Below, piece after piece: positions 12,141-64,000 of a DNA stretch of 64,000 bases (its first letter is position 1; the number at the start of each line of letters is the position of its first letter). The DNA is from Chloroflexota bacterium (GTDB taxonomy: Bacteria; Chloroflexota; UBA11872; JBHOQS01), in contig JBHOQS010000025.1 in NCBI GenBank assembly GCA_042408875.1, positions 41,391-105,390 of the forward strand, in the 5' to 3' direction. Both the position numbers and the translations under genes were made by a program. Under the pieces are notes generated by a model that had not been told where the DNA came from, made no database searches, and saw only the letters and a list, made by a program, of their open reading frames with translations.

Positions 12141-12824
12141 CTACGGCGCTTCGCCCCCGATGGAGGCGTAGATTTTTCGAAATTCCTCGCGCGCGCGGAA
12201 AAGCAGCGACTTGACTGCGCCACGGGTCGTGCCCAGGATCTCGGCGATCTCCTCGCAGGAGAGGTCCTGGTATTCCCGCAGCACCAGACATGTCCGATAC
12301 TTAGGGTTGAGCCGGTCCAGCGTTTTCTGTACCAGCTCCGCCGTCTCTTTGCGAATAGTTTCGCGCTCCGGATTCTCGCGCGCCACCTGGCTGGGATGGA
12401 ACACCGAGATGAACGTATCTAGCGGCTGCCAGCGAATGATCCGGCGCCTGCGGAGCTGATCAAGACAGGCGTTCGTTGCGATCCGGTACAACCACGCTGA
12501 GACGTTCAGGTCAGGCGTGGTGCGGTCGATCGCGCGAAACGCCTTCACAAACACGTCCTGCGTCAGGTCGTAGGCCTCCTCCGGGTTCCCCATCAGGCGC
12601 AAGACGTAATTGTAGATGGGATGCTGGTACTGCCGGAAGATCTCATCGAACGTCTGTGAGGGGGCGACGGCAGCCTGCTCTGCGGTTGGCGCAAGGCTAG
12701 CCTCGGTACTCGCGCCCTCCACCGCGGGGACCGAGCTCCCCGCCGCTCCTGAAGGAACGCCCAGTGCGCCGACACTTGCGGCACTCCCTGACCTGCCCAG
12801 CTTGAGTCCCGCTTTCGTGAACAC
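12141..12824 (-). CDS. ECF RNA polymerase sigma factor (N-terminus probably shorter than the ORF)
   Basis: YQHPIYNYVLRLMGNPEEAYDLTQDVFVKAFRA (region 2) and LVLREYQDLSCEEIAEILGTTRGAVKSLLFRAR (region 4). The first 40-50 residues are low-complexity and probably not translated. Confidence 0.75.
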   Translation of the reverse strand: MFTKAGLKLGRSGSAASVGALGVPSGAAGSSVPAVEGASTEASLAPTAEQAAVAPSQTFDEIFRQYQHPIYNYVLRLMGNPEEAYDLTQDVFVKAFRAIDRTTPDLNVSAWLYRIATNACLDQLRRRRIIRWQPLDTFISVFHPSQVARENPERETIRKETAELVQKTLDRLNPKYRTCLVLREYQDLSCEEIAEILGTTRGAVKSLLFRAREEFRKIYASIGGEAP

Positions 12825-14090: not shown

Positions 14091-15065
14091 CTACTGGCCG
14101 GGACGGCCATCGAGCACGCGGTGGACGCCCATGGCCTGGGCCTCCCTGTCCGCGTCGGGTATAATCGCCTCTCCCCCGACCGCGGCGACCACGGGCAGAC
14201 CGGAGATCCGTTCGAGCACACGCGCTCGTTCCACAGCGCGATGCACGTCACGGGGGTCGATCACCGCAGAGACTTCCGCTACCAGGTAAGCTTCGACCCC
14301 GGTGTCACGCAGTCTCCCACGGGCGACCACGTCAGCGTCCAGCACCGCGCGCCGTTGCTGACGAGTGATCAGCCCGCGCTCCTCCGCGTCGTCGAGCAGT
14401 GCGGCCAACTCGTGGCCGGGCACGACACGCAGGCGCAAGAGGAGGTCGTCGAAGTATGCATGAGCCTTCTCGCGATAGCGCGCCTCGAGAATGTAGCCGC
14501 GCATCGCGTCGAAGCGATCGACGCGGACCGCCAGCACCGCGAGCTGCTCCGCGGTGCGCTTCTGCGCCTCCGCCAGCTCATCCATCCGGGCGGCGAGCTG
14601 GCGCACTGTGGCGTCAGTCTGGCGCTGGGCCTCGGCTAGTTGGTCTATGCGAACAACCAGCTGGCGTACCGTGGCGTCAGTCTGGTGCTGGGCCTCGGCT
14701 AGTTGGTCTATGCGAACAACCAGTTGGCGTACTGTGACGTCAGTCTGGCGCTGCGCCTCCGCCAGCGCAGCCAGCGTGGCGCTAGTCTCACGCTGGGCCT
14801 CGGCGAGTTGATCCATCCGTCCAGCAAGCTGGTCCAGGCGCTGCTCCGTACGTGCCTGGGCTTCGGCCAGTCGGGTAAGCGCTGCTTCGAGCCGGTCTAC
14901 GCGCGCGTCCAGCACGGTCACTGCTCCTCGAACAATAGCTCCGATCGCGCTGGCTACTACCGTGGACACGTGCCAGGGATACGGGGGAACCAGACAGGCG
15001 TGTCGCGGTGGTGCACAGCGCCTCGTGACACTATCGTGCCACACTATCGTACCATAGATGACCAT
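14091..15065 (-). CDS. hypothetical protein: N-terminal coiled coil built from 21-aa tandem repeats plus C-terminal PD-(D/E)XK-like domain (speculative)
   Basis: RQLVVRIDQLAEAQ(R/H)QTDATV repeated about 3 times. The C-terminus has ...DADVV...EAYLVAEVSAVID..., a possible nuclease-like motif. No recognisable named family. Confidence 0.45.
   Translation of the reverse strand: MVIYGTIVWHDSVTRRCAPPRHACLVPPYPWHVSTVVASAIGAIVRGAVTVLDARVDRLEAALTRLAEAQARTEQRLDQLAGRMDQLAEAQRETSATLAALAEAQRQTDVTVRQLVVRIDQLAEAQHQTDATVRQLVVRIDQLAEAQRQTDATVRQLAARMDELAEAQKRTAEQLAVLAVRVDRFDAMRGYILEARYREKAHAYFDDLLLRLRVVPGHELAALLDDAEERGLITRQQRRAVLDADVVARGRLRDTGVEAYLVAEVSAVIDPRDVHRAVERARVLERISGLPVVAAVGGEAIIPDADREAQAMGVHRVLDGRPGQ
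14596..14754 (-). repeat. 63-bp near-perfect tandem repeats (about 2.5 copies) inside the coiled-coil CDS
   Basis: cagctggcg(c/t)ac(t/c)gtggcgtcagtctgg(c/t)gctgggcctcggctagttggtctatgcgaacaac repeated head-to-tail. Confidence 0.85.
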
Positions 15066-18743: not shown

Positions 18744-20078
18744 GTGGCCACAGTGGCGAGCACCTCTTTCGAAGAGCAGGTGAGCGGATTACCGTATACA
18801 GCACCGCTCCCACTCATGTATCGCGTCCGGCAGCATTTTCGTGCCCCCGTGCTGGCAGACCTCGAAGCGGCCATAGCCGAGCAGTGCCGCCTCCTGGACG
18901 GCCGCATCCACCCGGGCATGCGCGTCGGCCTCACCGCGGGCAGCCGTGGCATCGCCAACATTGCCCGCATCCTGCGCGCCGTTGGGCGCGAAGTGCGCGC
19001 CCGCGGGGGTGAGCCGTTCATCATCCCGGCGATGGGCAGCCACGGTGGTGCTACAGCTGAGGGACAGCATGCCATGCTGGCCGACCTCGGCATCACCGAG
19101 GCCAGCGTGGAGATGCCTATCGTCTCCTCCATGGAGGTGCGCGAGGTCGATCGCCTGGACGGGGGACCGCGCGTCTTCGTCAGCGTTACCGCCCTCGAGG
19201 CCGATGGCGTGATCGTCATCGGCCGCGTCAAGCCGCACACTGACTTTCGCAGCACGATCGAGAGCGGCCTGGCGAAGATGTGCGCGATTGGCTTGGGCAA
19301 GCATCGTGGGGCCCAGGAGATTCACTCATACGGCACCCAGGGCCTGGCGTACTGGCTTCCTCGGGCGGCTCGCCTGATCGTGCGCCATGCCCGCGTGCTG
19401 TTGGGCCTGGCCATTCTGGAGAATGCCTACGACCAGACCGCTCGTATCGTGGCCGTTACGCCGGAAGACATCGGCGGGCCGGGTGAAGAAGCGCTCCTTG
19501 AGGAGGCCCGTGGCCTGATGGCCTCTCTGCCCTTCGATCAGTTCGATGTCTTGGTCGTTGACGAGATGGGCAAGAACATCAGCGGCACCGGCATGGATAC
19601 GAACATCATCGGCCGCATGATGATCCAGGGCGTGCCGGAGTTCGACCGCCCGCGCATTAAGACGATTGCTGTCCTAGACCTGACCGACGCCGCACACGGG
19701 AACGCTGCCGGCATTGGCCTTGCGGACGTCACGACGCTGCGAGTCTACCGCAAGATCGACTTCCGCGCCACCTACATCAACGGCCTGACTTCAGGCATCG
19801 GCGGGGTGCAACGGGTGAAGCTCCCCATTGTCGCTCCCACCGACCGCGATGCCATTGCCGCAGCAATTCTCACCTGCGGGCGCGCCGACGCTACACAGGT
19901 GCAGCTGGTGCGCATCAAGAACACCCTTGAGCTGCATGAGATCCTGATCTCCGAAGCGCTCGTGCCGCAGGCGCGCCAGATCCCTCATCTGGAGATTGTC
20001 AGCGGCCCGGAGCCATTCGAATTCGATGCCCAGGGGCAGATCCGGCCGTTCCGCCTTCAGCCGGTTGCACACAGCTAG
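18744..20078 (+). CDS. DUF2088/LarA-like (lactate racemase N-terminal domain) protein
   Basis: 444 aa. GLTAGSRGIANIARIL...IPAMGSHGG... is typical of the LarA N-domain family. Confidence 0.5.
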   Translation: MATVASTSFEEQVSGLPYTAPLPLMYRVRQHFRAPVLADLEAAIAEQCRLLDGRIHPGMRVGLTAGSRGIANIARILRAVGREVRARGGEPFIIPAMGSHGGATAEGQHAMLADLGITEASVEMPIVSSMEVREVDRLDGGPRVFVSVTALEADGVIVIGRVKPHTDFRSTIESGLAKMCAIGLGKHRGAQEIHSYGTQGLAYWLPRAARLIVRHARVLLGLAILENAYDQTARIVAVTPEDIGGPGEEALLEEARGLMASLPFDQFDVLVVDEMGKNISGTGMDTNIIGRMMIQGVPEFDRPRIKTIAVLDLTDAAHGNAAGIGLADVTTLRVYRKIDFRATYINGLTSGIGGVQRVKLPIVAPTDRDAIAAAILTCGRADATQVQLVRIKNTLELHEILISEALVPQARQIPHLEIVSGPEPFEFDAQGQIRPFRLQPVAHS

Positions 20079-20098
20079 GGGACAGGCTGCTCCCAGTC

Positions 20099-21565
20099 TC
20101 ACAGCCTGCGCAGGAACTCTGTCGTCTCCTGATCGTAGGAGTCGAAGGGATCGCGTAGCGCCAGCCGCCGCCCTTCATCCACGTACACCATATCCCAGTC
20201 GATGACATAGGTGCGCACACCGCGGGCAAGCAGTGCGGCGACAGCGCGGCTGCGCGCACGGGCGCGGGTGTGCTGCGGAGCGAGCCGGGTAGCCAGCTCG
20301 ATCTCTGTCTCATCCACGAGCCGGCGCATCTGACCAGTCTGCTCCAGACCGTAGTACAGCCCGCGCGCTGGATCGATGTTGTGGTACTCGAGATCGAGGC
20401 TGACGAGGATATCCGCGCCCCAGGAGACGTTCTCCTCCTGCATGTACAGCTCCAGCAGCCGGCGCTTGGCTACCCAGTCGAGCCGGTCGGCCAGCGCCAT
20501 GGGATCACGCTCAAGCCCATCGAGCACGCTCTCCCATTCCACCAGTACCCAGTCGGTTTCGTGATCACGGCCGCGCACCAGGCGCTGCGCCTCTGCCAGG
20601 TACAGACGCTGTAGATCGATCGCAGAGATCGTGCTCCCGTCGGCGCGCTCGACCAGCCAGCGCAGGGTCGTGTCGCGCGACACCCGCCGCAGGGCAGACA
20701 AGGGATCGCGCAGACAGACCGCCTCACCTACTACACCCTGCTCGACAAGATCCAGCACCAGGCAGGTCGTGCCCACTTTGAGTGCCAGCGCGTACTCGCT
20801 CATGTTCCCTTCGCCGAACAGCAGGTGCAGCCGGCGCAGGTCATTGAACGAGGTACGCATGCTGCGCTTCGGATTGATGATCGCCCGGTTGAAGCGCACC
20901 CGCGGTGAGACAGTGTGCAGGATGTGGTCTGCCCGCTGGGAAAGCTGGTATGTCACCGTCGGGTCTGGCTCGACGGCGTAGACATCGGTCAGCCATACCT
21001 GGCCGGCGTCCCGGCGCAGGAGGCCTGCCCAGCCAAAATCCGGGCGTCTGATGCGATGGCCGCCTACCCGTCCGGCGCCGGCGAAGATCTGGCGGGTGAC
21101 CAGGAAGGGCAGGAGGTAAGGGAGTTCCTCGCGAAAGAAGCGATCGCCCAACGCGACGAGGTAGTTTTCGTGGCATCCGAAGGTATGCCCGGCGAAGTGA
21201 TCGACCGAGTTATTGTGGAAGCTTACCGCGCCGGCAAGTCCCATCTCTTCGAGGGCGCGCTGCAGGATACGCTGTCCGGCCCGCTCATGGGCTACCAGCT
21301 CACGCAGGCTGGAACACTCCGGCGTAGCATACTCCTCGTGGCTGCCGACCTCGTCTACATAGAGCCGCGCGCCATTGACCAGGAAGCCTCCACAACCGGC
21401 CGGCTCGAAGGAGTAGTCGCGGGAATGGAGATCGATCAAGCCCAGACGGCCCTCAAGGAAAACGTGGTCCTTGACCGCCTCGACGATGTTCTCGGCGCGC
21501 CCAAGCGCCGGGTCACGCACTAGACACCCGAACTCGGTTTCGATGCCGAACACGCGGGGCAGCAT
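20099..21565 (-). CDS. pafA: Pup/UBact--protein ligase (PafA-type)
   Basis: The N-terminal GIETEFG motif and ...NGARLYVDEVGSHEEYATPECS match PafA (LYLDVGSHPEYATAEC) and lack the long Dop loop. It is the last gene of the proteasome cluster. Confidence 0.8.
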   Translation of the reverse strand: MLPRVFGIETEFGCLVRDPALGRAENIVEAVKDHVFLEGRLGLIDLHSRDYSFEPAGCGGFLVNGARLYVDEVGSHEEYATPECSSLRELVAHERAGQRILQRALEEMGLAGAVSFHNNSVDHFAGHTFGCHENYLVALGDRFFREELPYLLPFLVTRQIFAGAGRVGGHRIRRPDFGWAGLLRRDAGQVWLTDVYAVEPDPTVTYQLSQRADHILHTVSPRVRFNRAIINPKRSMRTSFNDLRRLHLLFGEGNMSEYALALKVGTTCLVLDLVEQGVVGEAVCLRDPLSALRRVSRDTTLRWLVERADGSTISAIDLQRLYLAEAQRLVRGRDHETDWVLVEWESVLDGLERDPMALADRLDWVAKRRLLELYMQEENVSWGADILVSLDLEYHNIDPARGLYYGLEQTGQMRRLVDETEIELATRLAPQHTRARARSRAVAALLARGVRTYVIDWDMVYVDEGRRLALRDPFDSYDQETTEFLRRL

Positions 21566-21579
21566 ACACGCCCCCGTTG

Positions 21580-22383
21580 CTACCGCTCCATGCGGCGGTA
21601 CGGCGCCATCAGCGGCTCAAGCTCCCGCACGCCCAGGAGGCGGAACTTGCTCTCGCGCTGGGTGTTCCGCTGCAAGATAGCCGCTTCGACGGTCCCCTCG
21701 GCCAGCGCCTGGCGCAGCGTGCGGTCAATGAACTCCTCGTCCCCTTCCTCGGCGCGCCGGCCCTCCGCATCCTCCTCGTCCTCCCCACGAGCAGCGGGCT
21801 CGTCGCGGCTGCCCAGCGCCCAGATGCGCAGCGCATGCTCCAACGCTGCCTGGAGGCTCAGCGAGTCTCCCTCAAGGGTCTCGAGCTGGCGACGCATCAG
21901 CTCCTCACCGTAGCGACTGCCGGCGATAGCGCCGTAGCCGTAGGTGACGGTGAACTCCCCATCGTAGTTGAGGACGTAGTAGGCATCTGCCCCCGGCGCT
22001 CGCCCAAGCTCGGCGAAGATGCCCCGCAGCACGAAGGGGGCAGTAAATGTGTCGCCGAAGGACCGCTTGAGCGGCGGGGAGAGCGCGAAGCCGACCAGCC
22101 GCTGAGCCGACACGTCGTCTGGGCTGCGCTGGTACCCCTCCTGATGGCAGAAGTCGATTGCAGCAATGCGGAAGGTCTCGATATCGCCTTGATGCCCGAT
22201 CGCGGAGAACATCAGGCGATCATAGATCTCGTAGATCTTGCGCTGTGATCGCCGCACCGACAGCAGAAGCGCCCCATCGCGGTACGACAGGCCAACTACT
22301 GGGCTGCCGGCACGCAGCCGCTCTTCGACGTACTCCGCGCGATGCCTGATTGCCTCGTTAAAGTCATACGGCGTATACACCAT
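21580..22383 (-). CDS. prcA: 20S proteasome alpha subunit
   Basis: 267 aa. YDRLMFSAIGHQGD..., a typical alpha-subunit fold sequence directly downstream of the beta subunit. Confidence 0.8.
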   Translation of the reverse strand: MVYTPYDFNEAIRHRAEYVEERLRAGSPVVGLSYRDGALLLSVRRSQRKIYEIYDRLMFSAIGHQGDIETFRIAAIDFCHQEGYQRSPDDVSAQRLVGFALSPPLKRSFGDTFTAPFVLRGIFAELGRAPGADAYYVLNYDGEFTVTYGYGAIAGSRYGEELMRRQLETLEGDSLSLQAALEHALRIWALGSRDEPAARGEDEEDAEGRRAEEGDEEFIDRTLRQALAEGTVEAAILQRNTQRESKFRLLGVRELEPLMAPYRRMER

Positions 22384-22464
22384 CGGGTTGTACTACCCTC
22401 TCTCCAGCACCCCGCTTACACCACGCGCTTTTGTATCCAGCCAAACGTGTACCAGCACCGCGCG

Positions 22465-23343
22465 TTACCGCACCGTGACCGGGCCTGCACCGATGCGCTG
22501 GAGTGTTTCGCGCAGCTTCTCCTCTGGCACGTCCTGAATGCCCTCGGCGTCGATGAACTTCGCCAGTGGCAGATGCTTGTACGAGCCGCCGGTTGCCGTA
22601 TCGAGCTCCGCGGCGATCTCCAAGAGCAAGAGCGCCTCGTACAAGGCGTCATCAAAGGACATTTCGTGGAACGGTCCCTTGGTGCGCATGATGTACTCGA
22701 AGCAGCCGCGGATGCGCTCGGACCCGCTGCCCGCTGCGCCATACTCCGCCGTCTCGAAGCGGGCACCCATGCCATCGTAGAAGAAAATACGACCTTCGTT
22801 GCGATCGAGGTCGAACGTAGACAGCACCGGAATGAACGCCCCAATGCCGTTGATGAGGTTCGGCACGTTCGCCGCGATGACCCGTGCCAGCTCCGAGAGC
22901 TTGCCGTCCAAGCTCATACGCTGGAGCTGCGAGCGCTCGAAGTACTTGAAGGCGTGGCGCAGATACCGCACGACCTCGATCGCCTTGGCGTAGGAGCCCG
23001 AGATAGCGATGAGAGTGTAGTCGTCCAGCGCCAGCACCTTCTCGGCACGATCATACATCACCGCGAACGCGGCCGTGGCACGGCGGTCACCCACGTTGAG
23101 CACGCCACCTTTGTACTTGAGGGCAATGACCGTGGTGCCGTGCGTGTCCACCGCCGAGGCGGCCGGGCCTGGCGGCACCGGGACGACCTGCGGGATCGAC
23201 GGCGCGAACCGCGGCGGGAACCACGCTTCGCGGTCCCCCCTCCCGGGGCCGGCGTGGTCAGACAGGCTCTCTCTTGCAGGTAAGATCTCTATCCCAGAAC
23301 GCTGGAGTAGACGCGCGAAATCCCCACAAGCGTTTCCAAACAT
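22465..23343 (-). CDS. prcB: 20S proteasome beta subunit with propeptide (active-site Thr in ...DTHG|TTVIAL)
   Basis: A propeptide is followed by the TTVIALKYKGGVL Ntn-hydrolase motif. Confidence 0.85.
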   Translation of the reverse strand: MFGNACGDFARLLQRSGIEILPARESLSDHAGPGRGDREAWFPPRFAPSIPQVVPVPPGPAASAVDTHGTTVIALKYKGGVLNVGDRRATAAFAVMYDRAEKVLALDDYTLIAISGSYAKAIEVVRYLRHAFKYFERSQLQRMSLDGKLSELARVIAANVPNLINGIGAFIPVLSTFDLDRNEGRIFFYDGMGARFETAEYGAAGSGSERIRGCFEYIMRTKGPFHEMSFDDALYEALLLLEIAAELDTATGGSYKHLPLAKFIDAEGIQDVPEEKLRETLQRIGAGPVTVR

Positions 23344-23596
23344 GCGTTGTCTTTCTACTACCTACTGCTACCTTACTGCACACCCGCGCCCGGCCTCCCC
23401 TGTTGGCCAGGAGAGCACACGGTAACGCAAGGCGCCAGGGCGGTGCCATACCTTTCCTGCCGGCGGGCCTCGATCGTCATGCCTCGCCTGACCAGCCTGG
23501 TAAGCGAGCTACGCGATCAGGCCACGCCGGCGCGCCAGCGCCGGCCTGTGCCTCGCCGGTAGCAGGGAAGGCTGGGAAGAGAACCGCTATCGTCCC

Positions 23597-23782
23597 CTAC
23601 TCACCACTGCGCTGGCGGTAGCGGCGCGCCGTCTCTGGATCGACGCGGCGCATACGCCGCAGCAGTTCCTTCGTATCCGGCCGGCTCACATCCGGCCGGG
23701 TCGGCCCACCTTCGTCGCCCGGCTTGGTGATCGGGTCTTGCGGCAGCGGCCGGCGCAGACGCTCCTCCATCTTCACAATCAT
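23597..23782 (-). CDS. small ubiquitin-like prokaryotic modifier, UBact-type Pup homologue (61 aa from the ATG after the GGAGGAGG SD; ORF-track start 23818)
   Basis: Own reverse-complement translation: MIVKMEERLRRPLPQDPITKPGDEGGPTRPDVSRPDTKELLRRMRRVDPETARRYRQRSGE*. It sits between dop and prcB. The C-terminus LL..M..VDP..A.RYRQRSGE parallels the Pup LL..I..V....A...YVQKGGQ helix but ends SGE and is net basic. Confidence 0.65.
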   Translation of the reverse strand: MIVKMEERLRRPLPQDPITKPGDEGGPTRPDVSRPDTKELLRRMRRVDPETARRYRQRSGE

Positions 23783-23830
23783 CTCGACCTTGCCTCCTCC
23801 CATCAGACTGGGCATCACACCAACAGAGCC

Positions 23831-25441
23831 TTATTGGACGGCGCTCCGAAGTCGCTTGCGCTCCTCCCGCAGGATGTGCAAGAACTCGTCCAGGTCGCCG
23901 GCCCCGGCCAAGCGCTGGTTGAGCCCGGCGATCTCGCCGTCTACGAGCCTGGAGAGATCGATCGTGGCAGTGTGTCCGTCACGCTCCAGGCTGATCCGGC
24001 TCCATCCTACCAGGCAGATCGCCTCGTGGAAGCGCTCCACACACAGGCCACGCACAAAAGCGCGCGTCGAGGCCGGCGGATGGAGCATAGCCGCCTGGAT
24101 CTCGGCCTCGGTCACGATCCGGCGCACCTGGCCAGCCTGCTCCAGCCCATAGTACAGCCCGCGCTCCGGGTCGACGTTGTGGTATTCCAGGTCCAGTGCG
24201 AGCATCACTGGGTCGTCCCAGTGAACGCCTTCCTCGCGCTGATACGTCTCCAGGAGCAGGCGTTTAGCAACCCAGTCCAGGCGATCGGCCAGTTCCAGCG
24301 GGTCCCGCCCCAGCGCTTCTAGCGTAGCAGCCCATTCAACAAGTGTCCAGTCAGCATCCGGGCTCAGTCCGGCCAGCGTGCGCCGGGCAGCGTCCAGATA
24401 GGCATACTGGATGTCTAACGCCGTGGTCTTGCGCCCATCCTCTAGCTCGACCACCCAGCGCTGCGACGGATCACGCGAGATCGCCTTGATAGCCTCGACC
24501 GGGTTGCGCAGGCGCAGGTCCGGCAGCCACCCATCTTCAGCCAGCGCCAGCACGAGCGCGGTAGCCCCGACCCGCAAGGCCGTAGCGTACTCCGACATGT
24601 TCGCATCGCCAACGATCACATGAAAGCGCCGGTACAGCCGCGGGTCAGCGTGCGGCTCATCACGGGTATTGATGATCGGCCGGCGGTAGAGCGTCTCCAC
24701 GCTCGCTAGCTCGGTGACGTAGTCCGCCCGCTGGGAGAGCTGGTAGACCATCCCGGCGAAGGCGCTGCTGTCCTGTTCGATCCCCACCTTGCCGGCCCCG
24801 GCATAGATCTGCCGGGTCACCAGGAACGGTGTGAGCACCTGGATCAGGCGCTCGAACGGCACGTCGCGGCGCACCAGGTAGTCCTCATGGCAACCGTAGG
24901 AGATGCCGTGATAATCGGTGTTGTTCTTGTAGATCGCAAAGCTGCCGCCAGCCTGCTCCGCATAGAGCCTGGCGCACTCCAGCACGATGCGTTCACCGGC
25001 TTTATCGTGCGCCACGAGTTCGCGCAGCGTGGAGCACTCGGGCGTCGAGTACTCCGGATGGCCGTGGTCGTTGTACAGCCGCGCGCCATTGGCGAGCACA
25101 TGATCGGCGCGCACCTGGTCCGGCGGCATCTGCGGCTCGCCGGGCTTCTCCCATTTCGCATCTTCAGGATTCGGCGTCAGGTGTGCCACCCGGAAGCCGC
25201 GTGCGTCGGCGCGGGGGTCTTCGCGCCGGTAATCCCAGCGCCCGGCCCAGACCCGCGGGTAGGCATTCACGCAGGCCGTCGCCTCGCGGATGAGGTCGCC
25301 CGGATCCCGCCCCTCGATATGGAAGCCGTACTCGGTCTCGATGCCGAAGATGCGCGAGACCAGGTGTCCCGGCGGGAGCGTCGGGATCGGGCTCTGGAGC
25401 TGCTCCGCCTGTGGGGAGCCAGACTGCTGAGCGCTAGTCAT
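23831..25441 (-). CDS. dop: Pup/UBact deamidase-depupylase (Dop-type)
   Basis: GIETEYG is followed by a long insertion (RWDYRREDPRADARGF...) and ...NGARLYNDHGHPEYSTPECS, matching the Dop-specific loop and DHxHPEYSxPEC motif. Confidence 0.8.
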   Translation of the reverse strand: MTSAQQSGSPQAEQLQSPIPTLPPGHLVSRIFGIETEYGFHIEGRDPGDLIREATACVNAYPRVWAGRWDYRREDPRADARGFRVAHLTPNPEDAKWEKPGEPQMPPDQVRADHVLANGARLYNDHGHPEYSTPECSTLRELVAHDKAGERIVLECARLYAEQAGGSFAIYKNNTDYHGISYGCHEDYLVRRDVPFERLIQVLTPFLVTRQIYAGAGKVGIEQDSSAFAGMVYQLSQRADYVTELASVETLYRRPIINTRDEPHADPRLYRRFHVIVGDANMSEYATALRVGATALVLALAEDGWLPDLRLRNPVEAIKAISRDPSQRWVVELEDGRKTTALDIQYAYLDAARRTLAGLSPDADWTLVEWAATLEALGRDPLELADRLDWVAKRLLLETYQREEGVHWDDPVMLALDLEYHNVDPERGLYYGLEQAGQVRRIVTEAEIQAAMLHPPASTRAFVRGLCVERFHEAICLVGWSRISLERDGHTATIDLSRLVDGEIAGLNQRLAGAGDLDEFLHILREERKRLRSAVQ

Positions 25442-25534
25442 CGCGGATCACAGACCTCACCCCCGGCCCCTCCGCAGCAGCACGTGCAAGAAGGCCGGCC
25501 CGCCGCCTGCGGGCAGGGAGGAGCCGGGGCAGAG

Positions 25535-27289
25535 TTAGATGACACTTCGCCGCGACGCCGCAGCGGCGGCCAGGCGCTCCGGCCGGATCGGCCGCACGTT
25601 AACGACCTCCTCCGGCTCGTAGTCGAGCAACTTCAGCCAGTCCTCCATGGCGTCGCTCTTGGGGAAGATCTCGTTCTCTTTGTACTCCAGCCGGATCGCC
25701 CGCTCCAGGTCCTCGATGGAGAGCCCTTCGTCGAGCGAGTTCCGCTCGATTGAGCGCTTGATGGCGAAGTCCTTCGCTCGCTCGACGACCGACTTGATCA
25801 GCGCACCGGACACGAGATCACGCCAGTGCAGGATCTCTGTCCCGCCGTTGCGCATGTACACCTCGAGGAAGCGGGTATCCTCGTCGCGGCGCCACATGTA
25901 GGTGAGCGCCCGCTCGATCAGCTCCTCGCGGGCGGCCCGCTCATCACCGCCATGCTTTGCCACCAGCGCCGGATCGACCGGCACCCGCTCGTTCAGGTAG
26001 ATGCGGAAGATATCGCGCGAGGCACGGCGGTCAGGCCGGCCCACCTTCACCTTCCGGTCGATGCGCTCCGGCCGCAGGATCGCCGGGTCGATGTAGTCTG
26101 GACGGTTCGAGGTGAGCATCACCACTACGTTGTGCAGCGACACCAGGCCGTCCATCTCCGCGGCGAACTGCGGCACGACCGTGTTCGCGATGTTCAGCCA
26201 GCGACCTGATGAGCGCACGCGCAGGATGCTCTCCGCCTCGTCGATGAAGATGAAGACCAGGTAGCCCTCTTTGGCCTTCTCACGCGCCTGGGCGAAGATC
26301 TCGCGCACCATGCGCTCGGACTCACCCAGCCACATATTCAGGATCTTCGGGCCGCTGATGTACATGAAGTACTCCTTCACGTCGCGGCCCATCCGCTTCT
26401 TGTACTCCTGGGTGAGGTTGTAGGCAGTGGCCTTCCCGATGAGCGTCTTGCCACAGCCCGGCGGGCCGTAGAGCAGAATGCCCTTGAGCGGCCGCTTCTC
26501 GAAGCGCTCGAACAGCTCCGGGTGCAGCAGCGGCAGCTCGATGGCATCACGGATGACCTGGATAGCCTCCTCCTGGCCGCCGATGGCGCTCCAGGGGATC
26601 TCGGGCACCTCCTCCAGGTAGTAGTCGCGCACTTCCTTCTGGGCAAAGTGCTCCAGCGCGACCTTCATGTTCGGCTCCAGGCGCACTTCGTCGCCGGGCT
26701 TGAGCACCGCGCCTTCCAGGTCGCTACAGCGCAAGATCACCCGCCCGGAGAGGCCCTGCGGATCGGTGGACACACGCAGGCGGCCATCAGGCAGGACCTC
26801 GCTGATCTTCACAATCGGCCCGGTGGGATGGTAGCCCAGGTCACCGATGACGGCGAAGGCCTCATTGACCTTCACCCGCGTCCCGATCTTGAAGTTCTGC
26901 TCCTTGAGCTTCGGATCGACGTTGGAATAGTATTCGCTCTCGCCGACTGCGACGAGGGCGATGCCCTCGTCCGGCTTGCCCAGGTAGGTGGCAATTCGGT
27001 TCGCTGGCGACGTCAGCTTCTCGTACGCCTCTTCATACTCGGCCAGCGCTTCCATCGCCTCCTGGAACTGCCGCTCGTCTACCTCGAGCTGGTGGCGCAG
27101 CAGTAGGAGGTACTGCATCAGGCGCCCGTCTTTGATATCGAAGCGGTTGAGGATCTCGTCCAGCAGTGCCGAGGCCTTGAGCTGGGTCTCCGGAAAGACG
27201 CGCTCTTGGAACCGCTCGCGCTCGGGTTCTCGATTGCTGCGCCGGTTGCGCTCCAGATCGCGTCCACCATTGCGGGAATCGCGGCTCAT
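25535..27289 (-). CDS. proteasome-associated AAA+ ATPase (Mpa/ARC-like)
   Basis: 584 aa. N-terminal coiled coil, an OB-like region, Walker A GPPGCGKT, Walker B FIFIDEAES. The C-terminus ends ...SRRSVI (no GQYL). Confidence 0.8.
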   Translation of the reverse strand: MSRDSRNGGRDLERNRRSNREPERERFQERVFPETQLKASALLDEILNRFDIKDGRLMQYLLLLRHQLEVDERQFQEAMEALAEYEEAYEKLTSPANRIATYLGKPDEGIALVAVGESEYYSNVDPKLKEQNFKIGTRVKVNEAFAVIGDLGYHPTGPIVKISEVLPDGRLRVSTDPQGLSGRVILRCSDLEGAVLKPGDEVRLEPNMKVALEHFAQKEVRDYYLEEVPEIPWSAIGGQEEAIQVIRDAIELPLLHPELFERFEKRPLKGILLYGPPGCGKTLIGKATAYNLTQEYKKRMGRDVKEYFMYISGPKILNMWLGESERMVREIFAQAREKAKEGYLVFIFIDEAESILRVRSSGRWLNIANTVVPQFAAEMDGLVSLHNVVVMLTSNRPDYIDPAILRPERIDRKVKVGRPDRRASRDIFRIYLNERVPVDPALVAKHGGDERAAREELIERALTYMWRRDEDTRFLEVYMRNGGTEILHWRDLVSGALIKSVVERAKDFAIKRSIERNSLDEGLSIEDLERAIRLEYKENEIFPKSDAMEDWLKLLDYEPEEVVNVRPIRPERLAAAAASRRSVI

Positions 27290-27503
27290 GCTTCCCTCTC
27301 GTTACGCTACAGACCCCACCGAGACAGGCGGCGCGTACAGCTGTAGCGCCGCAGCTACGCTAATGAGTATACCCCGTGGACGCGACAGGCGCCACGCCCG
27401 ACAGCCTACCCATCCGGCTAGCCTCGCCGGCGCTTGCATTCGCGGCATCGGCTCAGGTATCCTAGCCAACCGCGGGACCCAAACACCACCGGAGCATACC
27501 ACG

Positions 27504-28442
27504 ATGGACAGACACTGGAACGCCTACATGCACGTGGGTATCGTGCACTTCATGCTCTGGCCGCAGGTACAGGGCGGCACTGGCCCGATCCTGGAGACCG
27601 CCGCGCAGATCGCACAGGACCCCTTCTTCAATGTCCTGGAGGTCACGCGGGTCGAAGATCCGGAAACACGCCGCAAACTGCGCGAGCTTATGGACGCAGC
27701 ACATATGGAGCTCGGCTTCGGCGCTCAGCCTGGCCTGCTCCGCAACCGCCTCAACCTTGCCGATCTCGACGAGGACGGCCGCCGGCGCGCGGTGGACGAG
27801 GTGAAAGGCGCCATCGACCAGGCCTACGAGCTGGGCTGTCGCCTGCTCGCGTTCATGGATGGCCCGCAGTCCTACCCTGGCCCTGAGAAGGCTGGCGCGG
27901 CCACAGACCAGCTCGTCAGATCGATCGTCGAACTGTGCCGCTATGCGTCTGATCGGGGGAAGGAGTACGAGCTAGCGCTCTCCCTGGAGACCTTCGACCG
28001 CGAGGTGGAAAAGAAGTCGCTGATCGGCCCCACTAGAGAAGCTGTGGAGCTCGCACGTCGCGTGCGCGAACAGGTCTCCAACTTCGGACTGACCCTCGAT
28101 CTATCGCACCTGCCCCTGCTGGGCGAGGCGCCGGAGGAGGCGCTGACGCTGGCCAGGGACTTCCTCATCCACGCGCATGCCGGCAACTGCGCCATGCGCG
28201 ACCGCGGCCATCCGGCCTACGGAGACCAGCACCCCCGCTTCGGCGTGCTGGGCGGAGAAAACGACGTGGCGGAGCTGGCCACCTACCTGCGGGCGTTGCT
28301 GAAGAGTGGCTTTTTCGACAAGCGGCTGCCCACGAAACGGCCGGTGCTCACGTTCGAGGTCAAGCCGATGCCGGGCGAGAGCGCCGAAGTCATCATCGCT
28401 AATACGAAGCGTACCTTCATCGAGGCGTGGGCGCTGGTCTGA
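27504..28442 (+). CDS. sugar phosphate isomerase/epimerase (xylose-isomerase-like TIM barrel)
   Basis: 312 aa from an in-frame ATG. ...LSLETFDREVEKKSLIGP...LTLDLSHL...HAHAGNC... is a TIM-barrel AP-endonuclease-2 family pattern. Confidence 0.55.
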   Translation: MDRHWNAYMHVGIVHFMLWPQVQGGTGPILETAAQIAQDPFFNVLEVTRVEDPETRRKLRELMDAAHMELGFGAQPGLLRNRLNLADLDEDGRRRAVDEVKGAIDQAYELGCRLLAFMDGPQSYPGPEKAGAATDQLVRSIVELCRYASDRGKEYELALSLETFDREVEKKSLIGPTREAVELARRVREQVSNFGLTLDLSHLPLLGEAPEEALTLARDFLIHAHAGNCAMRDRGHPAYGDQHPRFGVLGGENDVAELATYLRALLKSGFFDKRLPTKRPVLTFEVKPMPGESAEVIIANTKRTFIEAWALV

Positions 28443-34034: not shown

Positions 34035-34355
34035 CTACCTGGCCTCCATCCTGCCCCTGGCCTCTCGTGCGCTTCGGGGTCCCGTGCATCCGGCAGTGCT
34101 CAACGCAGCAACGTCGCCGGCAAGCCGGACCGAACAGCGATCTACCTGGTCACCCTTCGCACCTTAGCCGGTCCGCGGCCGAAACAGAAATTCGGGCGAC
34201 GAAAGGGCTAGCAGCTTCGGGCGCGCATCCAGGCTACTTCGCTACACACATGTGCATTGACCAGCACGCGCGCCGCCACCTACACTGCATCTAGGCATCA
34301 CCGGCTACTCCGGGAGCCCGGTATGCCGTGCGCCACCAGGGAGGTCACGCGAGAC

Positions 34356-41890: not shown

Positions 41891-42811
41891 CTACTCGGCA
41901 CGACCGGAGCCCGGGCCGCGCCGGCGCCGCAAGAAGTCCTCCAGGTCTTTGATCAGGGCATCCCCGCTAGGGAGCTCGCTCGACCGCGCCGTGTCCTCCT
42001 CTTCGTCCTCTGCCTCCTCATCGCCCGGGAGTGTGCCGGCCTCGAGCTGGCGGACGTAGTCCGCGGCCTCGGGGTTCTGCGCTACGGCCTCAGCAACCTG
42101 GGCATCGAAGCGGATCGCCACGCGCTCTAGCTCCTGGAGATCGAGCGCCAGATCGAGCAGGCGGCTCAACCGCTGCAAGAGAGCCAGCGCGATGCGGGGG
42201 TTCTGCATGCCCTGGAGGTAATGCGGCACGTGGCCCCACAGGCTGGCGGTGCGAAACCCTGCCTGCCCGGCCAGCGTATTCAGCACGCCGACGATTCCCG
42301 TCGGGCCCTGGTAAGGCCGCCCGCCCGCCATGCCCAGCACGCGCAGGCGTTCTAGCCACACGGCGTCGTTTGACGAGCCGCTGACGCGCGGCGGCCGGGT
42401 ATGCGGCACGTCCGCCAGCAGCGCGCCAAGGGTGATGATGCTCGAGACCTGTACCTCGCGGCAGAGCGCCAGAATGTCGCTCACATAGGTCTTCCAGCGG
42501 AGCTGCGGCTCAATGCCGACGAGAATGACGAAGTCGGTCGCGCTCTCCGGCACCTCGGCCGCGAAGAACGTGTTCGCCGGCCATTCAATGCGACGCTGCG
42601 ACCGACCCACGACCCGCACTGTCGGGCGCGTCTCGGTGAAGTCGTAAAACTCCTCTGGATCGAGGTCCGCAAATGGCCTGGCGCGCCAGCGCTGGACCAG
42701 CACCTCGGCAGCTGACGTGGCGGCAAGGGCAGCGTCATTCCAGCCGGCAAAGGCGGCGATCAGGATCGGGGTACGTAACCGCGGGCGCTCACGCAGCGCA
42801 ATGTACTGCAT
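41891..42811 (-). CDS. PAC2-family (proteasome assembly chaperone-like) protein
   Basis: LIAAFAGWNDAALAATSAAEVL...VILVGIEPQLRWK... is typical of the bacterial PAC2 family. Acidic C-terminal tail. Confidence 0.55.
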   Translation of the reverse strand: MQYIALRERPRLRTPILIAAFAGWNDAALAATSAAEVLVQRWRARPFADLDPEEFYDFTETRPTVRVVGRSQRRIEWPANTFFAAEVPESATDFVILVGIEPQLRWKTYVSDILALCREVQVSSIITLGALLADVPHTRPPRVSGSSNDAVWLERLRVLGMAGGRPYQGPTGIVGVLNTLAGQAGFRTASLWGHVPHYLQGMQNPRIALALLQRLSRLLDLALDLQELERVAIRFDAQVAEAVAQNPEAADYVRQLEAGTLPGDEEAEDEEEDTARSSELPSGDALIKDLEDFLRRRRGPGSGRAE

Positions 42812-43138
42812 TGATCGTTTCTCTCCCTGACGGTGTAACCGTCTGTGAGCACGACCGTCTCCCACCATGACCGCGGGCACAGGCACGGCCGGGAACCATC
42901 GCGGTCATTCTACTAGGATTCAGCCAGCGATGCCTACCCGGCGTTGACACGGTCTATGCCGCTGCCTAGAATGCACGGGCAGCCGGGCTTGCCGAAGCTC
43001 CTGCGCTGGCCGGCACGTTGCATAGGGGATGCGGCAAGCCTGTGCGCCCGAGAGCCCTCTATTCTATACTCCCTACACTTCGGAGCTACCGTAGAACCTC
43101 ACTACTATGTACGTATGTACGATGGAGGAGCAAGACGA

Positions 43139-63963: not shown

Positions 63964-64000
63964 AGGCGGCCTCCCGGCGCAGGGCATCATAGGTACAGTG

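What the first reader, a model, noticed from the sequence alone, without database searches (positions are those of the whole stretch)
20099..27289. Complete compact UBact-type Pup-proteasome locus (Mpa-Dop-UBact-PrcB-PrcA-PafA) with a basic modifier ending RYRQRSGE
All six genes are contiguous on one strand, including pafA. In actinobacteria pafA and pafBC are usually separated from mpa-dop-pup-prcBA. The modifier (23782>23597) ends ...LLRRMRRVDPETARRYRQRSGE. It is net basic, whereas actinobacterial Pup is acidic and ends GGQ or GGE. My recollection is that the UBact clade of Pup homologues (found in several Gram-negative and candidate phyla) ends R(T/S)G(E/Q) and shows exactly this gene order. 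That recollection should be confirmed. The terminal residue is Glu, so no Dop deamidation is needed before ligation, yet Dop is retained (depupylase role). The Mpa C-terminus is ...SRRSVI, without the GQYL proteasome-docking motif known from Mycobacterium.
Basis: partly seen in the sequence, partly recalled or inferred. Interest (0 to 1): 0.6.

Follow-up and report, generated by a model that had tools for sequence, protein, structure and literature searches.

The report
UBact-type Pup-proteasome gene cluster
This is a complete bacterial "tag and shred" protein-degradation operon of the already described UBact type, so it is ordinary as a system, though two of its parts lack motifs that are essential in the tuberculosis bacterium's version.

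Summary
Six contiguous minus-strand genes (20099-27289) encode an Mpa-like AAA ATPase, a Dop-like depupylase/deamidase, a 61-aa UBact modifier, proteasome beta and alpha subunits, and a PafA-like ligase.

- **Modifier:** it passes the curated UBact models (Pfam PF20513, NCBIfam NF033388). It is basic (+5, pI 10.7) and ends YRQRSGE.
- **Conservation:** in the 84 related loci fetched (80 with a recognisable modifier gene) the tail is always RQR[S/T]G[E/Q]. Most of the fully covered loci, from Armatimonadota, Bipolaricaulota/Acetothermia and Poribacteria, show the same six-gene order.
- **Selection:** all six genes are under strong purifying selection (dN/dS 0.035-0.066 against a roughly 85%-identical relative).
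- **Rival modifier:** no other ORF in the locus ends in GG[Q/E].

The kind has been known since 2008/2017, and public annotation already names the relatives.

Two details appear undescribed:
- The ATPase tail is a conserved, tyrosine-free RR[N/S][I/V][I/V] instead of GQYL.
- The PafA-like enzyme replaces the canonical NTRDEPH phosphate-binding motif with NPK(R/W)..., accompanied by a clade-specific insertion.

The ATPase coiled coil is acidic, which would complement the basic tag. Conjugation and degradation are inferred, not shown.

The parts
25535..27289 (-). Mpa/ARC-like proteasomal AAA ATPase (584 aa). It has an acidic N-terminal coiled coil, a double OB domain, an AAA module, a C-terminal domain and a Tyr-less tail ...SRRSVI.
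   Evidence: Pfam domains: Prot_ATP_ID_OB_N, Prot_ATP_ID_OB_C and AAA. TIGR03689 pup_AAA scores 453 bits, below the 504.75 cut-off. The best solved relatives are M. tuberculosis Mpa chains at 342-347 bits, aligned through to residue 575. The tail consensus RR[NS][IV][IV] holds in 57 syntenic homologues. The coiled coil, residues 55-95, has net charge -5. dN/dS 0.052.
23831..25441 (-). Dop-like depupylase/deamidase (536 aa), with a Dop-loop insertion and the canonical active site (E35/E37, D125, R260, H274).
   Evidence: Pfam Pup_ligase 547 bits. TIGR03688 Dop scores 481 bits against 390 for PafA. PDB: A. cellulolyticus Dop 411.6 bits against C. glutamicum PafA 261.6. It carries D-H-G-H-P-E-Y-S-T-P and NTRDEPHAD, which match the Dop-specific positions of PMC7947786 Table 1.
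23597..23782 (-). UBact modifier (61 aa). It is basic and ends YRQRSGE. The N-terminal 37 residues have no predicted structure, followed by two short C-terminal helices.
   Evidence: PF20513 79.2 bits and NF033388 77.2 bits. A ribosome-binding site, GGGAGGAGG, lies upstream of the ATG. An alignment of 27 homologues shows a YRQRSG[E/Q] ending that is essentially invariant (invariant Y-R-Q-R-S; one ends RSVE). Net charge +5, pI 10.7. dN/dS 0.035. AlphaFold2: pTM 0.26, helices at 38-44 and 49-59.
23344..23596 (-). 253-nt G+C-rich non-coding spacer between UBact and prcB. It may be a structured attenuator or processing element. Its function is not established.
   Evidence: PrcB cannot start upstream of 23343, because that is the first start codon after a stop. 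MFE -129.9 kcal/mol, z -2.87. No Rfam match. Poorly conserved against L081.
22465..23343 (-). 20S proteasome beta subunit PrcB (292 aa). A 69-aa propeptide precedes the G69|T70 cleavage site. The catalytic residues Thr1, Asp17 and Lys33 correspond to T70, D86 and K102.
   Evidence: Pfam Proteasome 80 bits. TIGR03690 137.9 bits. The alignment to the mature Rhodococcus and M. tuberculosis beta chains starts at query residue 70, and GSGS is present.
21580..22383 (-). 20S proteasome alpha subunit PrcA (267 aa). It is divergent, carries an acidic low-complexity insertion near residues 195-215, and keeps the pocket lysine (RKIYEIYDR).
   Evidence: Pfam Proteasome scores only 20.9 bits, below the 22.4 cut-off. 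TIGR03691 70.6 bits. Rhodococcus alpha 53.7 bits and M. tuberculosis PrcA 40.6 bits. dN/dS 0.063.
20099..21565 (-). PafA-like candidate UBact ligase (488 aa). It has no Dop loop and carries a PafA-type D71-E-V-G-S-H segment. The canonical NTRDEPHAD motif is replaced by NPK233R234SMRTSFND. It also has a clade-specific insertion of about 25 aa (residues ~169-204).
   Evidence: Pfam Pup_ligase 423 bits. TIGR03686 PafA scores 321 bits against 300 for Dop. PDB: Dop 249 bits against PafA 209 for the full length, and 100.9 against 100.7 for the N-terminal half. The motif is identical in the relative that is 89% identical. dN/dS 0.061. NCBI names relatives 'proteasome accessory factor PafA2 family protein'.
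41891..42886 (-). PAC2-family protein (331 aa), a candidate proteasome assembly chaperone. It is encoded 14.6 kb from the cluster and is not part of it.
   Evidence: Pfam PF09754 PAC2, E 2.4e-52. The proposed chaperone role comes from PMC2588565. It is not found within about 8 kb of the cluster in any of the 84 related loci.

Best explanation
This is a functional UBact-type Pup-proteasome system, expressed from one strand as one or a few transcription units.

Inferred mechanism, by analogy with the mycobacterial pathway:
1. UBact is a 61-aa, largely unstructured, basic tag whose C-terminal residue is already Glu.
2. The PafA-like carboxylate-amine ligase phosphorylates the gamma-carboxylate of that Glu using ATP. 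It then joins the tag by an isopeptide bond to lysines of target proteins.
3. The hexameric Mpa-like ATPase captures the tag on its acidic N-terminal coiled coils, threads it through the OB ring and unfolds the substrate.
4. The substrate passes into the PrcA/PrcB 20S core, where the Thr1 nucleophile becomes active after removal of a 69-residue propeptide.
5. The Dop-like enzyme removes the tag (depupylation). In sister lineages whose tag ends in Gln, it also deamidates the tag.

What is shown here: gene content, order, family membership, catalytic residues, conservation and purifying selection.

What is inferred: conjugation, tag capture, docking and degradation.

Two steps must differ in detail from Mycobacterium:
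- Docking of the ATPase on the alpha ring uses a conserved Tyr-less RR[N/S][I/V][I/V] tail.
- Phosphate binding in the ligase uses Lys/Arg in an NPK(R/W) motif in place of NTRDEPH.
For: - **Family hits for all six products:**
- **UBact:** it exceeds both curated cut-offs.
- **Synteny:** the same six-gene order occurs in most of the 80 loci from species-representative genomes, covering Armatimonadota, Bipolaricaulota/Acetothermia and Poribacteria. It also occurs in metagenomic relatives L081, L083 and L084.
- **Selection:** dN/dS is 0.035-0.066 for all six genes against L081.
- **Dop-like enzyme:** GIETE, D125, R260 and H274 are intact, and a Dop loop carries the conserved RWDY..E.P..DARGF sequence.
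- **PafA-like enzyme:** GIETE, D71 with a PafA-type V-G-S insertion, GCHENY, SQRAD and RLH247 are intact.
- **PrcB:** Thr1, Asp17, Lys33 and GSGS are present.
- **PrcA:** the activator-binding lysine is conserved (its role is described in PMC12288473).
- **Tag structure:** two predicted C-terminal helices and no globular fold.
- **Charge pairing:** the tag is basic (+1 to +7 in 80 loci). The Mpa coiled coil is acidic, at -5 here with a median of -4 in 55 relatives.
- **E/Q alternation:** the tag's last residue alternates between close relatives, which explains why Dop is retained.
Against: - I found no experimental demonstration of UBact conjugation in the searchable literature. Every biochemical step is therefore by analogy.
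- Mpa, Dop, PafA, PrcB and PrcA all score below the NCBIfam equivalog cut-offs, which were trained on actinobacteria.
- The GQYL motif, described as essential for proteasome activation in mycobacteria (PMC12288473), is absent.
- The Arg-containing NTRDEPH motif is replaced in the PafA-like enzyme. Its Arg binds the catalytic phosphate in Dop (PMC8599861), and PafA is inactive when that Arg is mutated (PMC7947786).
- UBact shows no statistically significant similarity to Pup.
Confidence: 0.82

Rival explanations
1. The tagging machinery works, but the Mpa-like ATPase does not dock on the 20S core through its C-terminus. It would act as a free-standing unfoldase or need another adaptor. UBact tagging would then be mainly regulatory, or only loosely coupled to proteolysis.
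For: The tail lacks the penultimate Tyr of GQYL/HbYX in all 57 syntenic homologues. That motif is reported as essential in mycobacteria. Fimbriimonadales-type loci keep Dop-UBact-PrcB-PrcA without an adjacent Mpa or PafA.
Against: - The tail is itself strongly conserved (RR[NS][IV][IV], always at the extreme C-terminus). That argues for a docking function rather than loss of one.
- The alpha-subunit pocket lysine is conserved.
- The ATPase gene is contiguous with the proteasome genes across phyla.
- The ATPase gene is under the second-strongest constraint in the cluster (dN/dS 0.052; only UBact is lower).
Confidence: 0.1
2. The downstream Pup-ligase-family protein (20099-21565) is not the ligase. 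With its NTRDEPH motif replaced, it would be a second hydrolase, a regulator or a pseudo-enzyme. Ligation would be done by the Dop-like protein or by an enzyme encoded elsewhere.
For: Global similarity is a tie, or slightly favours Dop: PDB Dop 249 bits against PafA 209, and NCBIfam PafA 321 against Dop 300. The canonical Arg/DEPH motif is lost. Several PafA-specific alpha-loop positions of PMC7947786 (W176, E177, T183, T184) are not kept.
Against: - It lacks the Dop loop.
- It has the PafA-specific V-G-S insertion after the catalytic Asp, plus Ala-Thr in EYAT (against Table 1).
- It keeps His at the PafA His174 position.
- A basic residue (K233/R234) persists at the phosphate-binding site.
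- All other nucleotide- and metal-binding motifs are intact.
- dN/dS is 0.061.
- The variant motif is conserved across hundreds of Armatimonadota and Bipolaricaulota sequences, together with a co-occurring GGHR-containing insertion.
- The Dop-like partner has every Dop-specific residue.
Confidence: 0.07
3. The 61-aa ORF is a chance ORF, or the true modifier is another small ORF with a GGQ/GGE end.
For: None beyond its small size. Its profile does not detect Pup.
Against: - The curated HMM hits are far above their cut-offs.
- It is conserved at the same position in 80 loci.
- It has 20 synonymous against 3 non-synonymous changes.
- It has a strong ribosome-binding site.
- No GG[Q/E]-ending ORF exists in the locus.
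Confidence: 0.01

Closest known systems
UBact-proteasome loci of Gram-negative and candidate phyla (Lehmann, Udasin, Livneh and Ciechanover 2017, BBRC 483:946, cited in PMC5751360). Non-actinobacterial Pup loci were first noted by Iyer, Burroughs and Aravind 2008 (PMC2588565).
   Same: The modifier family is the same (PF20513/NF033388). The R[S/T]G[E/Q] C-terminus is the same. The locus has the same six components on one strand with PafA contiguous. The closest named relatives are from Armatimonadota, and NCBI already labels them 'ubiquitin-like protein UBact' and 'PafA2 family protein'.
   Different: Nothing differs at the level of the system. This lineage is only 57-58% (Dop) to 71-73% (Mpa) identical to the nearest species-representative genomes. 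Its PafA-like enzyme carries a private variant, NPKRSMRT, of the clade's NPKWDSYY motif.
Actinobacterial Pup-proteasome system (Mycobacterium tuberculosis Mpa-Dop-Pup-PrcB-PrcA plus a distant PafA-PafBC).
   Same: The enzyme families and folds are the same: Dop with its Dop loop and R227/H241 equivalents, a PafA-type V-G-S insertion, and an Mpa with coiled coil, double OB, AAA and C-terminal domains. The beta subunit is a Thr1 protease with a long propeptide. The tag ends in G[E/Q] and has a helical C-terminal half.
   Different: - The tag is basic and ends SGE, not acidic ending GGQ/GGE. It is not recognised by Pup models.
- pafA is contiguous with the other genes.
- The Mpa tail is RRSVI, not GQYL.
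- The ligase lacks NTRDEPH and has an extra insertion.
- No PafBC, Bpa/PafE or Cpa gene is present in the window.
- All products fall below the actinobacteria-trained equivalog cut-offs.
HbYX-motif proteasome activators (archaeal PAN, eukaryotic Rpt subunits, mycobacterial Mpa and PafE/Bpa).
   Same: A ring ATPase with a flexible C-terminal tail that ends in hydrophobic residues, paired with an alpha subunit that keeps the pocket lysine.
   Different: The penultimate residue is Ile/Val instead of the defining Tyr. The tail is preceded by conserved Arg-Arg-[Asn/Ser]. Among representatives clustered at 50% identity, the G[Q/H]Y[L/F] and N/S-[IV]-I tails form two separate classes.

Membership tests
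UBact (Pfam PF20513; NCBIfam NF033388) | Scores above the curated HMM cut-offs | tested here: met
   79.2 bits against a cut-off of 27.8, and 77.2 bits against a cut-off of 35. All 27 database homologues carry PF20513.
UBact (Pfam PF20513; NCBIfam NF033388) | C-terminus R-[S/T]-G-[E/Q], with the terminal residue available for gamma-carboxylate ligation | tested here: met
   The tag ends RQRSGE. Across 80 loci the endings are RQRSGE 47, RQRSGQ 28 and RQRTGE 5.
UBact (Pfam PF20513; NCBIfam NF033388) | Encoded next to Pup-ligase-family and proteasome genes | tested here: met
   It lies between the Dop-like gene and prcB. The same position is found in the related loci.
UBact (Pfam PF20513; NCBIfam NF033388) | Small protein without a globular fold | tested here: met
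   61 aa. The AlphaFold2 pTM is 0.26. Residues 1-37 have no secondary structure, followed by two short helices.
UBact (Pfam PF20513; NCBIfam NF033388) | Covalent conjugation to substrate lysines | not testable with these tools
   This needs biochemistry or proteomics. No experimental paper was found in the library.
Pup sensu stricto (actinobacterial) | Recognised by Pup sequence models, acidic, and ending GGQ/GGE | tested here: not met
   No Pup family hit even at E<=10 for 28 UBact sequences. The UBact profile finds no Pup chain in the PDB. The tag is basic and ends SGE.
Dop (TIGR03688 depupylase/deamidase) | Equivalog HMM cut-off | tested here: inconclusive
   481 bits against a cut-off of 492.3, so just below. 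It is still 91 bits above its PafA score.
Dop (TIGR03688 depupylase/deamidase) | Dop loop, Dop-specific residues around the catalytic Asp (D-H-A/G-H...S-T-P with no insertion), and R227/H241 equivalents | tested here: met
   The loop aligns with A. cellulolyticus Dop residues 40-82. The sequence reads D125-H-G-H-P-E-Y-S-T-P, with R260 and H274 present. The criteria come from PMC7947786 Table 1 and PMC8599861.
PafA (TIGR03686 Pup-protein ligase) | Equivalog HMM cut-off, and a better match to PafA than to Dop | tested here: not met
   321 bits against a cut-off of 551.3. The PafA-Dop margin is only 21 bits. PDB chains favour Dop, 249 against 209 bits.
PafA (TIGR03686 Pup-protein ligase) | No Dop loop, the PafA-specific Val-Gly-Ser segment after the catalytic Asp, and Ala-Thr in EYAT | tested here: met
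   The sequence is D71-E-V-G-S-H-E-E-Y-A-T-P, aligned to C. glutamicum PafA D-V-G-S-H-P-E-Y-A-T-A. 43 residues sit where Dop has 67. The pattern is conserved in 49 homologues.
PafA (TIGR03686 Pup-protein ligase) | Conserved alpha-loop Thr-Thr and the Arg of N-T-R-D-E-P-H (M. smegmatis PafA R193, essential) | tested here: not met
   The sequence reads ...SPRVRFNRAIINPKRSMRTSFND. The Thr-Thr pair is absent and NTRDEPH is replaced, with K233/R234 as the only basic candidates. The essentiality of R193 comes from PMC7947786.
Mpa/ARC proteasomal ATPase (TIGR03689) | Coiled coil, double OB domain and AAA module | tested here: met
   Pfam Prot_ATP_ID_OB_N, Prot_ATP_ID_OB_C and AAA are present. It scores 342-347 bits to M. 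tuberculosis Mpa structures. The equivalog score of 453 is below the 504.75 cut-off.
Mpa/ARC proteasomal ATPase (TIGR03689) | C-terminal GQYL (HbYX-type) proteasome-docking motif | tested here: not met
   The protein ends SRRSVI. None of the 57 syntenic homologues has a penultimate Tyr.
Bacterial 20S proteasome (TIGR03690 beta, TIGR03691 alpha) | Beta subunit with propeptide, Thr1, Asp17 and Lys33. Alpha subunit with the activator-pocket Lys. | tested here: met
   Beta: G69|T70, D86 and K102. Alpha: the alignment to Rhodococcus and M. tuberculosis PrcA keeps the Lys of (Q/H/R)K(I/V)xE(L/I)YDR. My numbering of that Lys as M. tuberculosis K52 is from memory. Both subunits fall below the equivalog cut-offs.

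The most novel reading that the evidence does not exclude
UBact-type systems would be a charge-inverted, re-wired version of the Pup-proteasome system, not merely a divergent copy. Three linked differences would make up this version:
- The basic tag is read by an acidic Mpa coiled coil.
- The ATPase docks on the 20S alpha ring through a conserved tyrosine-free RR[N/S][I/V][I/V] tail. That would be a docking code distinct from HbYX/GQYL.
- In the Armatimonadota/Bipolaricaulota clade, the ligase binds the acyl-phosphate with a Lys (or a residue from a clade-specific GGHR-containing insertion) in place of the canonical NTRDEPH arginine.
Probability: 0.35. Interest if true: 0.45.

Novelty: new member of a known kind. 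Interest (0 to 1): 0.25.

Why it matters
As a system it adds little. UBact loci with this gene order are already catalogued and are annotated automatically.

Its value is as a clean, complete example from a lineage that is poorly represented among reference genomes. The comparative details raise testable questions about a pathway studied almost only in Mycobacterium:
- How does an Mpa-type ATPase open a 20S gate without the supposedly essential GQYL motif?
- How does a PafA-type ligase work without the NTRDEPH arginine motif?
- Does recognition between tag and receptor rely on inverted electrostatics?

A cultured relative, Chthonomonas calidirosea, carries the same type of PafA-like enzyme, so these questions are experimentally accessible.

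Tried and rejected
- **Alternative modifier ORF.** I scanned all six frames of 19800-27700 for ORFs ending in G[Q/E]. Only UBact and an out-of-frame read inside mpa were found, and none ended GG[Q/E]. Rejected.
- **UBact-Pup homology by statistics.** The UBact profile against PDB chains found no Pup. Pfam at E<=10 gave no Pup hit for 28 members. Homology is therefore not demonstrable here. Only positional resemblance of the last ~27 residues remains.
- **Promoter and terminator consensus scan of the locus.** Counts did not exceed the shuffled controls, so it was uninformative.
- **Rfam on the locus and on the whole window.** No match. No tRNAs were found.
- **The 253-nt spacer as a conserved RNA.** It folds somewhat better than shuffles (z -2.87) but is poorly conserved in the nearest relative. 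Not pursued.
- **PAC2 as a linked accessory gene.** No homologue was found in any of the 84 related loci, so it is not part of the cluster.
- **Search for PafBC/WYL, Bpa or Cpa genes.** Pfam scans of about 40 other ORFs in the window found none.
- **One wasted PDB search.** In one search I set the E-value filter too tight and excluded PafA. I repeated it on the N-terminal half.
- **Organism identity.** It could not be fixed. The best species-representative matches are Armatimonadota MAGs at only 57-73% identity. The exact sequence occurs in SRA run SRR24490439.
- **Literature.** The original UBact paper (PubMed 28087277) is not held in the library. Its existence and title are taken from the reference list of PMC5751360.

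Full report
**Observation**

- a 584-aa AAA ATPase (25535-27289)
- a 536-aa Pup-ligase-family protein (23831-25441)
- a 61-aa ORF (23597-23782)
- two proteasome-family proteins (22465-23343 and 21580-22383)
- a second Pup-ligase-family protein of 488 aa (20099-21565)

The cluster is bounded by a divergent gene upstream, an AP_endonuc_2 family gene at about 27504-28442 on the plus strand. Downstream it is bounded by a convergent gene, 18744-20078 on the plus strand, with weak Lar_N and DUF362 hits.

The small ORF starts at an ATG preceded by GGGAGGAGG. It reads MIVKMEERLRRPLPQDPITKPGDEGGPTRPDVSRPDTKELLRRMRRVDPETARRYRQRSGE. It has 16 K/R and 11 D/E, which gives a net charge of +5 and a pI of 10.7. 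The ATPase ends ...AAAAASRRSVI.

**What the genes are**

- **ATPase.** Pfam finds AAA plus both proteasomal-ATPase OB domains. Its best solved relatives are M. tuberculosis Mpa chains (342-347 bits). The alignment runs through the C-terminal domain to residue 575 of 584.
- **Pup-ligase family proteins.** The Pfam Pup_ligase scores are 547 and 423 bits.
- **Small ORF.** It scores 79.2 bits on Pfam UBact and 77.2 bits on NCBIfam ubiq_like_UBact, whose cut-off is 35.
- **Beta subunit.** It aligns to mature Rhodococcus and M. tuberculosis PrcB from residue 70 onward. That implies a 69-residue propeptide cleaved at G69|T70, with Asp17 (D86), Lys33 (K102) and GSGS in place.
- **Alpha subunit.** It is divergent: below the Pfam cut-off, 53.7 bits to Rhodococcus alpha and 40.6 bits to M. 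tuberculosis PrcA. It keeps the lysine of the RKIYEIYDR segment. That lysine corresponds to the pocket lysine that binds activator C-termini (review PMC12288473). My numbering of it as M. tuberculosis K52 is from memory.

All five larger proteins fall below the NCBIfam equivalog cut-offs, which were trained on actinobacteria.

**Conservation**

A database search with the 61-aa protein returned 27 homologues, all carrying PF20513. P, G, L, R, M and the YRQRSG[E/Q] end are invariant or nearly so.

A scan of species-representative genomes with the Dop-like protein returned 80 loci. The best were Armatimonadota MAGs at 57-58% identity. In most loci whose contig covers the region, the order Mpa-Dop-UBact-PrcB-PrcA-PafA is the same. 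These include Acetothermia/Bipolaricaulia and Poribacteria.

In 80 of the loci (including the metagenomic relatives) the modifier ends RQRSGE (47), RQRSGQ (28) or RQRTGE (5, mostly Poribacteria). Its net charge is always positive, from +1 to +7.

A metagenomic relative, L081, is about 84-87% identical in DNA and shares the flanking genes. It carries the same cluster. Against it, dN/dS values are:

| Gene | dN/dS |
|---|---|
| Mpa | 0.052 |
| Dop | 0.066 |
| UBact | 0.035 (20 synonymous, 3 non-synonymous differences) |
| PrcB | 0.057 |
| PrcA | 0.063 |
| PafA-like | 0.061 |

The tag of that relative ends in Gln rather than Glu. The window's exact ATPase sequence also occurs on a contig assembled from SRA run SRR24490439. 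No other ORF in the locus ends in GG[Q/E].

**Dop versus PafA**

The upstream enzyme is unambiguously Dop-like:
- TIGR03688 scores 481 bits against 390 for PafA.
- A. cellulolyticus Dop scores 411.6 bits against 261.6 for C. glutamicum PafA.
- Its loop insertion aligns with the Dop loop, including the RWDY..E.P..DARGF sequence.
- It carries D125-H-G-H-P-E-Y-S-T-P and the canonical N-T-R260-D-E-P-H...R-F-H274.
- These match the Dop-specific positions tabulated by Hecht et al. (PMC7947786). They also match the phosphate-binding R227 and H241 of Dop (PMC8599861).

The downstream enzyme is globally equidistant from the two classes. NCBIfam gives PafA 321 against Dop 300 bits. PDB gives Dop 249 against PafA 209 bits over the full length, and 100.9 against 100.7 bits over the N-terminal half.

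Several diagnostic features nevertheless point to PafA:
- It lacks the Dop loop.
- It has D71-E-V-G-S-H-E-E-Y-A-T, which includes the PafA-specific Val-Gly-Ser segment and Ala-Thr.
- It keeps His at the PafA His174 position.

However, the N-T-R-D-E-P-H-A-D motif shared by all characterised Dop and PafA enzymes is replaced:
- In the window and its close relatives (>=71% identity) it reads N-P-K233-R234-S-M-R-T-S-F-N-D (N-P-K-R-G-A-R... in the 71%-identical relative).
- In most other Armatimonadota and Bipolaricaulota homologues it reads N-P-[K/R]-[W/R]-[D/E]-[S/T]-[Y/F].
- Poribacteria keep N-[T/A]-R-D-E-P-L.

The variant motif co-occurs with a conserved insertion of about 25 residues that begins GGHR. 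The Arg of this motif holds the catalytic phosphate in Dop, and PafA R193A is inactive. The ligase of this clade must therefore bind the acyl-phosphate somewhat differently, probably through K233/R234. Strong purifying selection, and the intact GIETE, catalytic Asp, GCHENY, SQRAD and RLH motifs, argue that it is an active enzyme. NCBI annotation calls its relatives 'proteasome accessory factor PafA2 family protein'. One of those relatives is from the cultured Chthonomonas calidirosea.

**The ATPase tail**

In 57 syntenic Mpa homologues the C-terminus is ...RR[N/S][I/V][I/V]. The most common endings are RNVI (18), RNII (9), RNIV (4) and RSVI (3). None has a penultimate Tyr.

An exhaustive search of representatives clustered at 50% identity shows two tail classes among Mpa-like proteins of normal length. 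G[Q/H]Y[L/F] occurs in the more distant hits (35-42% identity). N/S/G-[I/V]-I occurs in several, including two of the closest full-length ones (P0029 ...PRNVI, P0036 ...NRSII).

GQYL is described as essential for gate opening in mycobacteria (PMC12288473). The conserved alternative tail therefore suggests a different docking solution, not the absence of docking.

**Relation to Pup, and how the tag is probably read**

The UBact profile does not detect Pup chains in the PDB. No UBact member hits Pfam's Pup model even at E<=10. hhalign against M. tuberculosis Pup aligns only the last 27 columns, KELLRRMRRVDPETA----RRYRQRSGE against DDLLDEIDDVLEENAEDFVRAYVQKGGQ. The score is weak (E 0.031, probability 1.6%).

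AlphaFold2 predicts no globular fold for UBact (pTM 0.26). Residues 1-37 are unstructured and helices form at 38-44 and 49-59. This resembles the two-helix conformation reported for Pup bound to PafA, which I cite from established knowledge and did not test.

The acidic residues of Pup's helical region are replaced by Arg/Lys in UBact. Correspondingly, the coiled-coil segment of the Mpa-like protein (residues 55-95) has net charge -5, with a median of -4 in 55 relatives. The M. tuberculosis segment, recalled from memory, is about neutral. Electrostatic complementarity between a basic tag and an acidic receptor is therefore a reasonable inference, but an untested one.

**Mechanism**

The best-supported reading is a working tag-and-degrade pathway:
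1. The PafA-like ligase activates the C-terminal Glu of UBact with ATP and attaches it to substrate lysines.
2. The Mpa-like hexamer binds the tag, unfolds the substrate and feeds it to the PrcA/PrcB core.
3. The Dop-like enzyme removes tags. In lineages whose tag ends in Gln it also deamidates the tag.

The shown parts are gene content, order, motifs, conservation and selection. The chemistry is inferred from the actinobacterial system. I found no experimental paper on UBact in the searchable library.

**Context in the window**

- No PafBC-like (WYL), Bpa/PafE or Cpa gene was found among about 40 other ORFs scanned.
- A PAC2-family protein (41891-42886, E 2.4e-52) is a candidate proteasome assembly chaperone of the kind Iyer et al. 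noted near actinobacterial loci. It is 14.6 kb away and is not linked to the cluster in any related locus.
- A 253-nt G+C-rich spacer separates UBact from prcB. It folds moderately better than shuffles (z -2.87), has no Rfam match and is poorly conserved.

**Novelty**

Pup-like loci outside actinobacteria were described in 2008 (PMC2588565). The UBact name and family date from 2017 (reference in PMC5751360). Armatimonadetes were listed among carriers of Dop/PafA homologues in 2020 (PMC7947786). Curated HMMs and public annotation recognise these genes.

The locus is therefore a new member of a known kind. The Tyr-less Mpa tail, the NPK(R/W) ligase motif with its insertion, and the tag/receptor charge inversion are lineage-level details that I did not find described. 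They are modestly interesting, and they are testable because a cultured relative exists.

**Limits**

- The organism is not identified beyond 'closest to Armatimonadota'.
- No phylogeny with actinobacterial references was built.
- No complex structure could be predicted.

Noticed in passing
window 23344-23596 (-): A 253-nt G+C-rich non-coding spacer separates the UBact stop from the prcB start. MFE is -129.9 kcal/mol with z -2.87. It has no Rfam match and is poorly conserved in the nearest relative. It could set different expression levels for the tag and the proteasome subunits.
   Followed up: partly
window 41891-42886 (-): A PAC2-family protein (PF09754, E 2.4e-52), a candidate proteasome assembly chaperone, lies 14.6 kb from the cluster. 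No homologue was found within the flanks of 84 related loci.
   Followed up: yes
window 20099-21565 (-), residues ~169-204 and 231-242: The PafA-like enzyme has a clade-specific insertion of about 25 aa beginning GGHR. This insertion co-occurs with replacement of NTRDEPH by NPK(W/R)... in Armatimonadota and Bipolaricaulota. Poribacteria lack both changes. It may represent compensatory re-wiring of the phosphate-binding site.
   Followed up: partly
L081:10001-10186 compared with window 23597-23782: The tag's last residue switches between Glu (window) and Gln (L081) in relatives that are 95% identical in the tag. Across 80 loci, 52 end in E and 28 in Q.
   Followed up: yes
L026, L027, L030, L031, L034, L048, L050, L055, L057, L060, L061, L063 (Fimbriimonadales-type loci): These loci have Dop-UBact-PrcB-PrcA but no recognisable Mpa where upstream flank was fetched, nor PafA in the fetched flanks (up to 8 kb). 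The six-gene cluster is therefore split in that order.
   Followed up: no
L024 and L036 (Armatimonadota MAGs), around 9488-9650: No UBact hit was found between the Dop and PrcB genes. The gap of about 140 nt is too short for the gene, so the tag may be encoded elsewhere or lost. L075 and L079 (Verrucomicrobiota) show only Mpa-Dop at this site.
   Followed up: no
window 8983-12824 (-) and 41513-41827 (-): Two ECF sigma factor and zf-HC2 anti-sigma pairs are present (9979-10578 with 8983-9831, and 12141-12824 with 10701-12080). A third lone zf-HC2 protein lies next to the PAC2 gene.
   Followed up: no
window 14596-14759, inside ORF 14091-15065 (-): A 63-nt tandem repeat of 2.6 copies (92% matches) lies inside a 324-aa ORF that has no Pfam match.
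   Followed up: no
window 21580-22383 (-), residues ~195-215: PrcA carries an acidic low-complexity insertion (RGEDEEDAEGRRAEEGDEEF). It is so divergent that it misses the Pfam Proteasome cut-off (20.9 against 22.4 bits).
   Followed up: partly
window 34257-36032 (+), 615-1208 (+), 63148-63990 (-): Three sizeable ORFs with coding-like GC3 bias (591, 197 and 280 aa) have no Pfam match at E<=1e-4.
   Followed up: no
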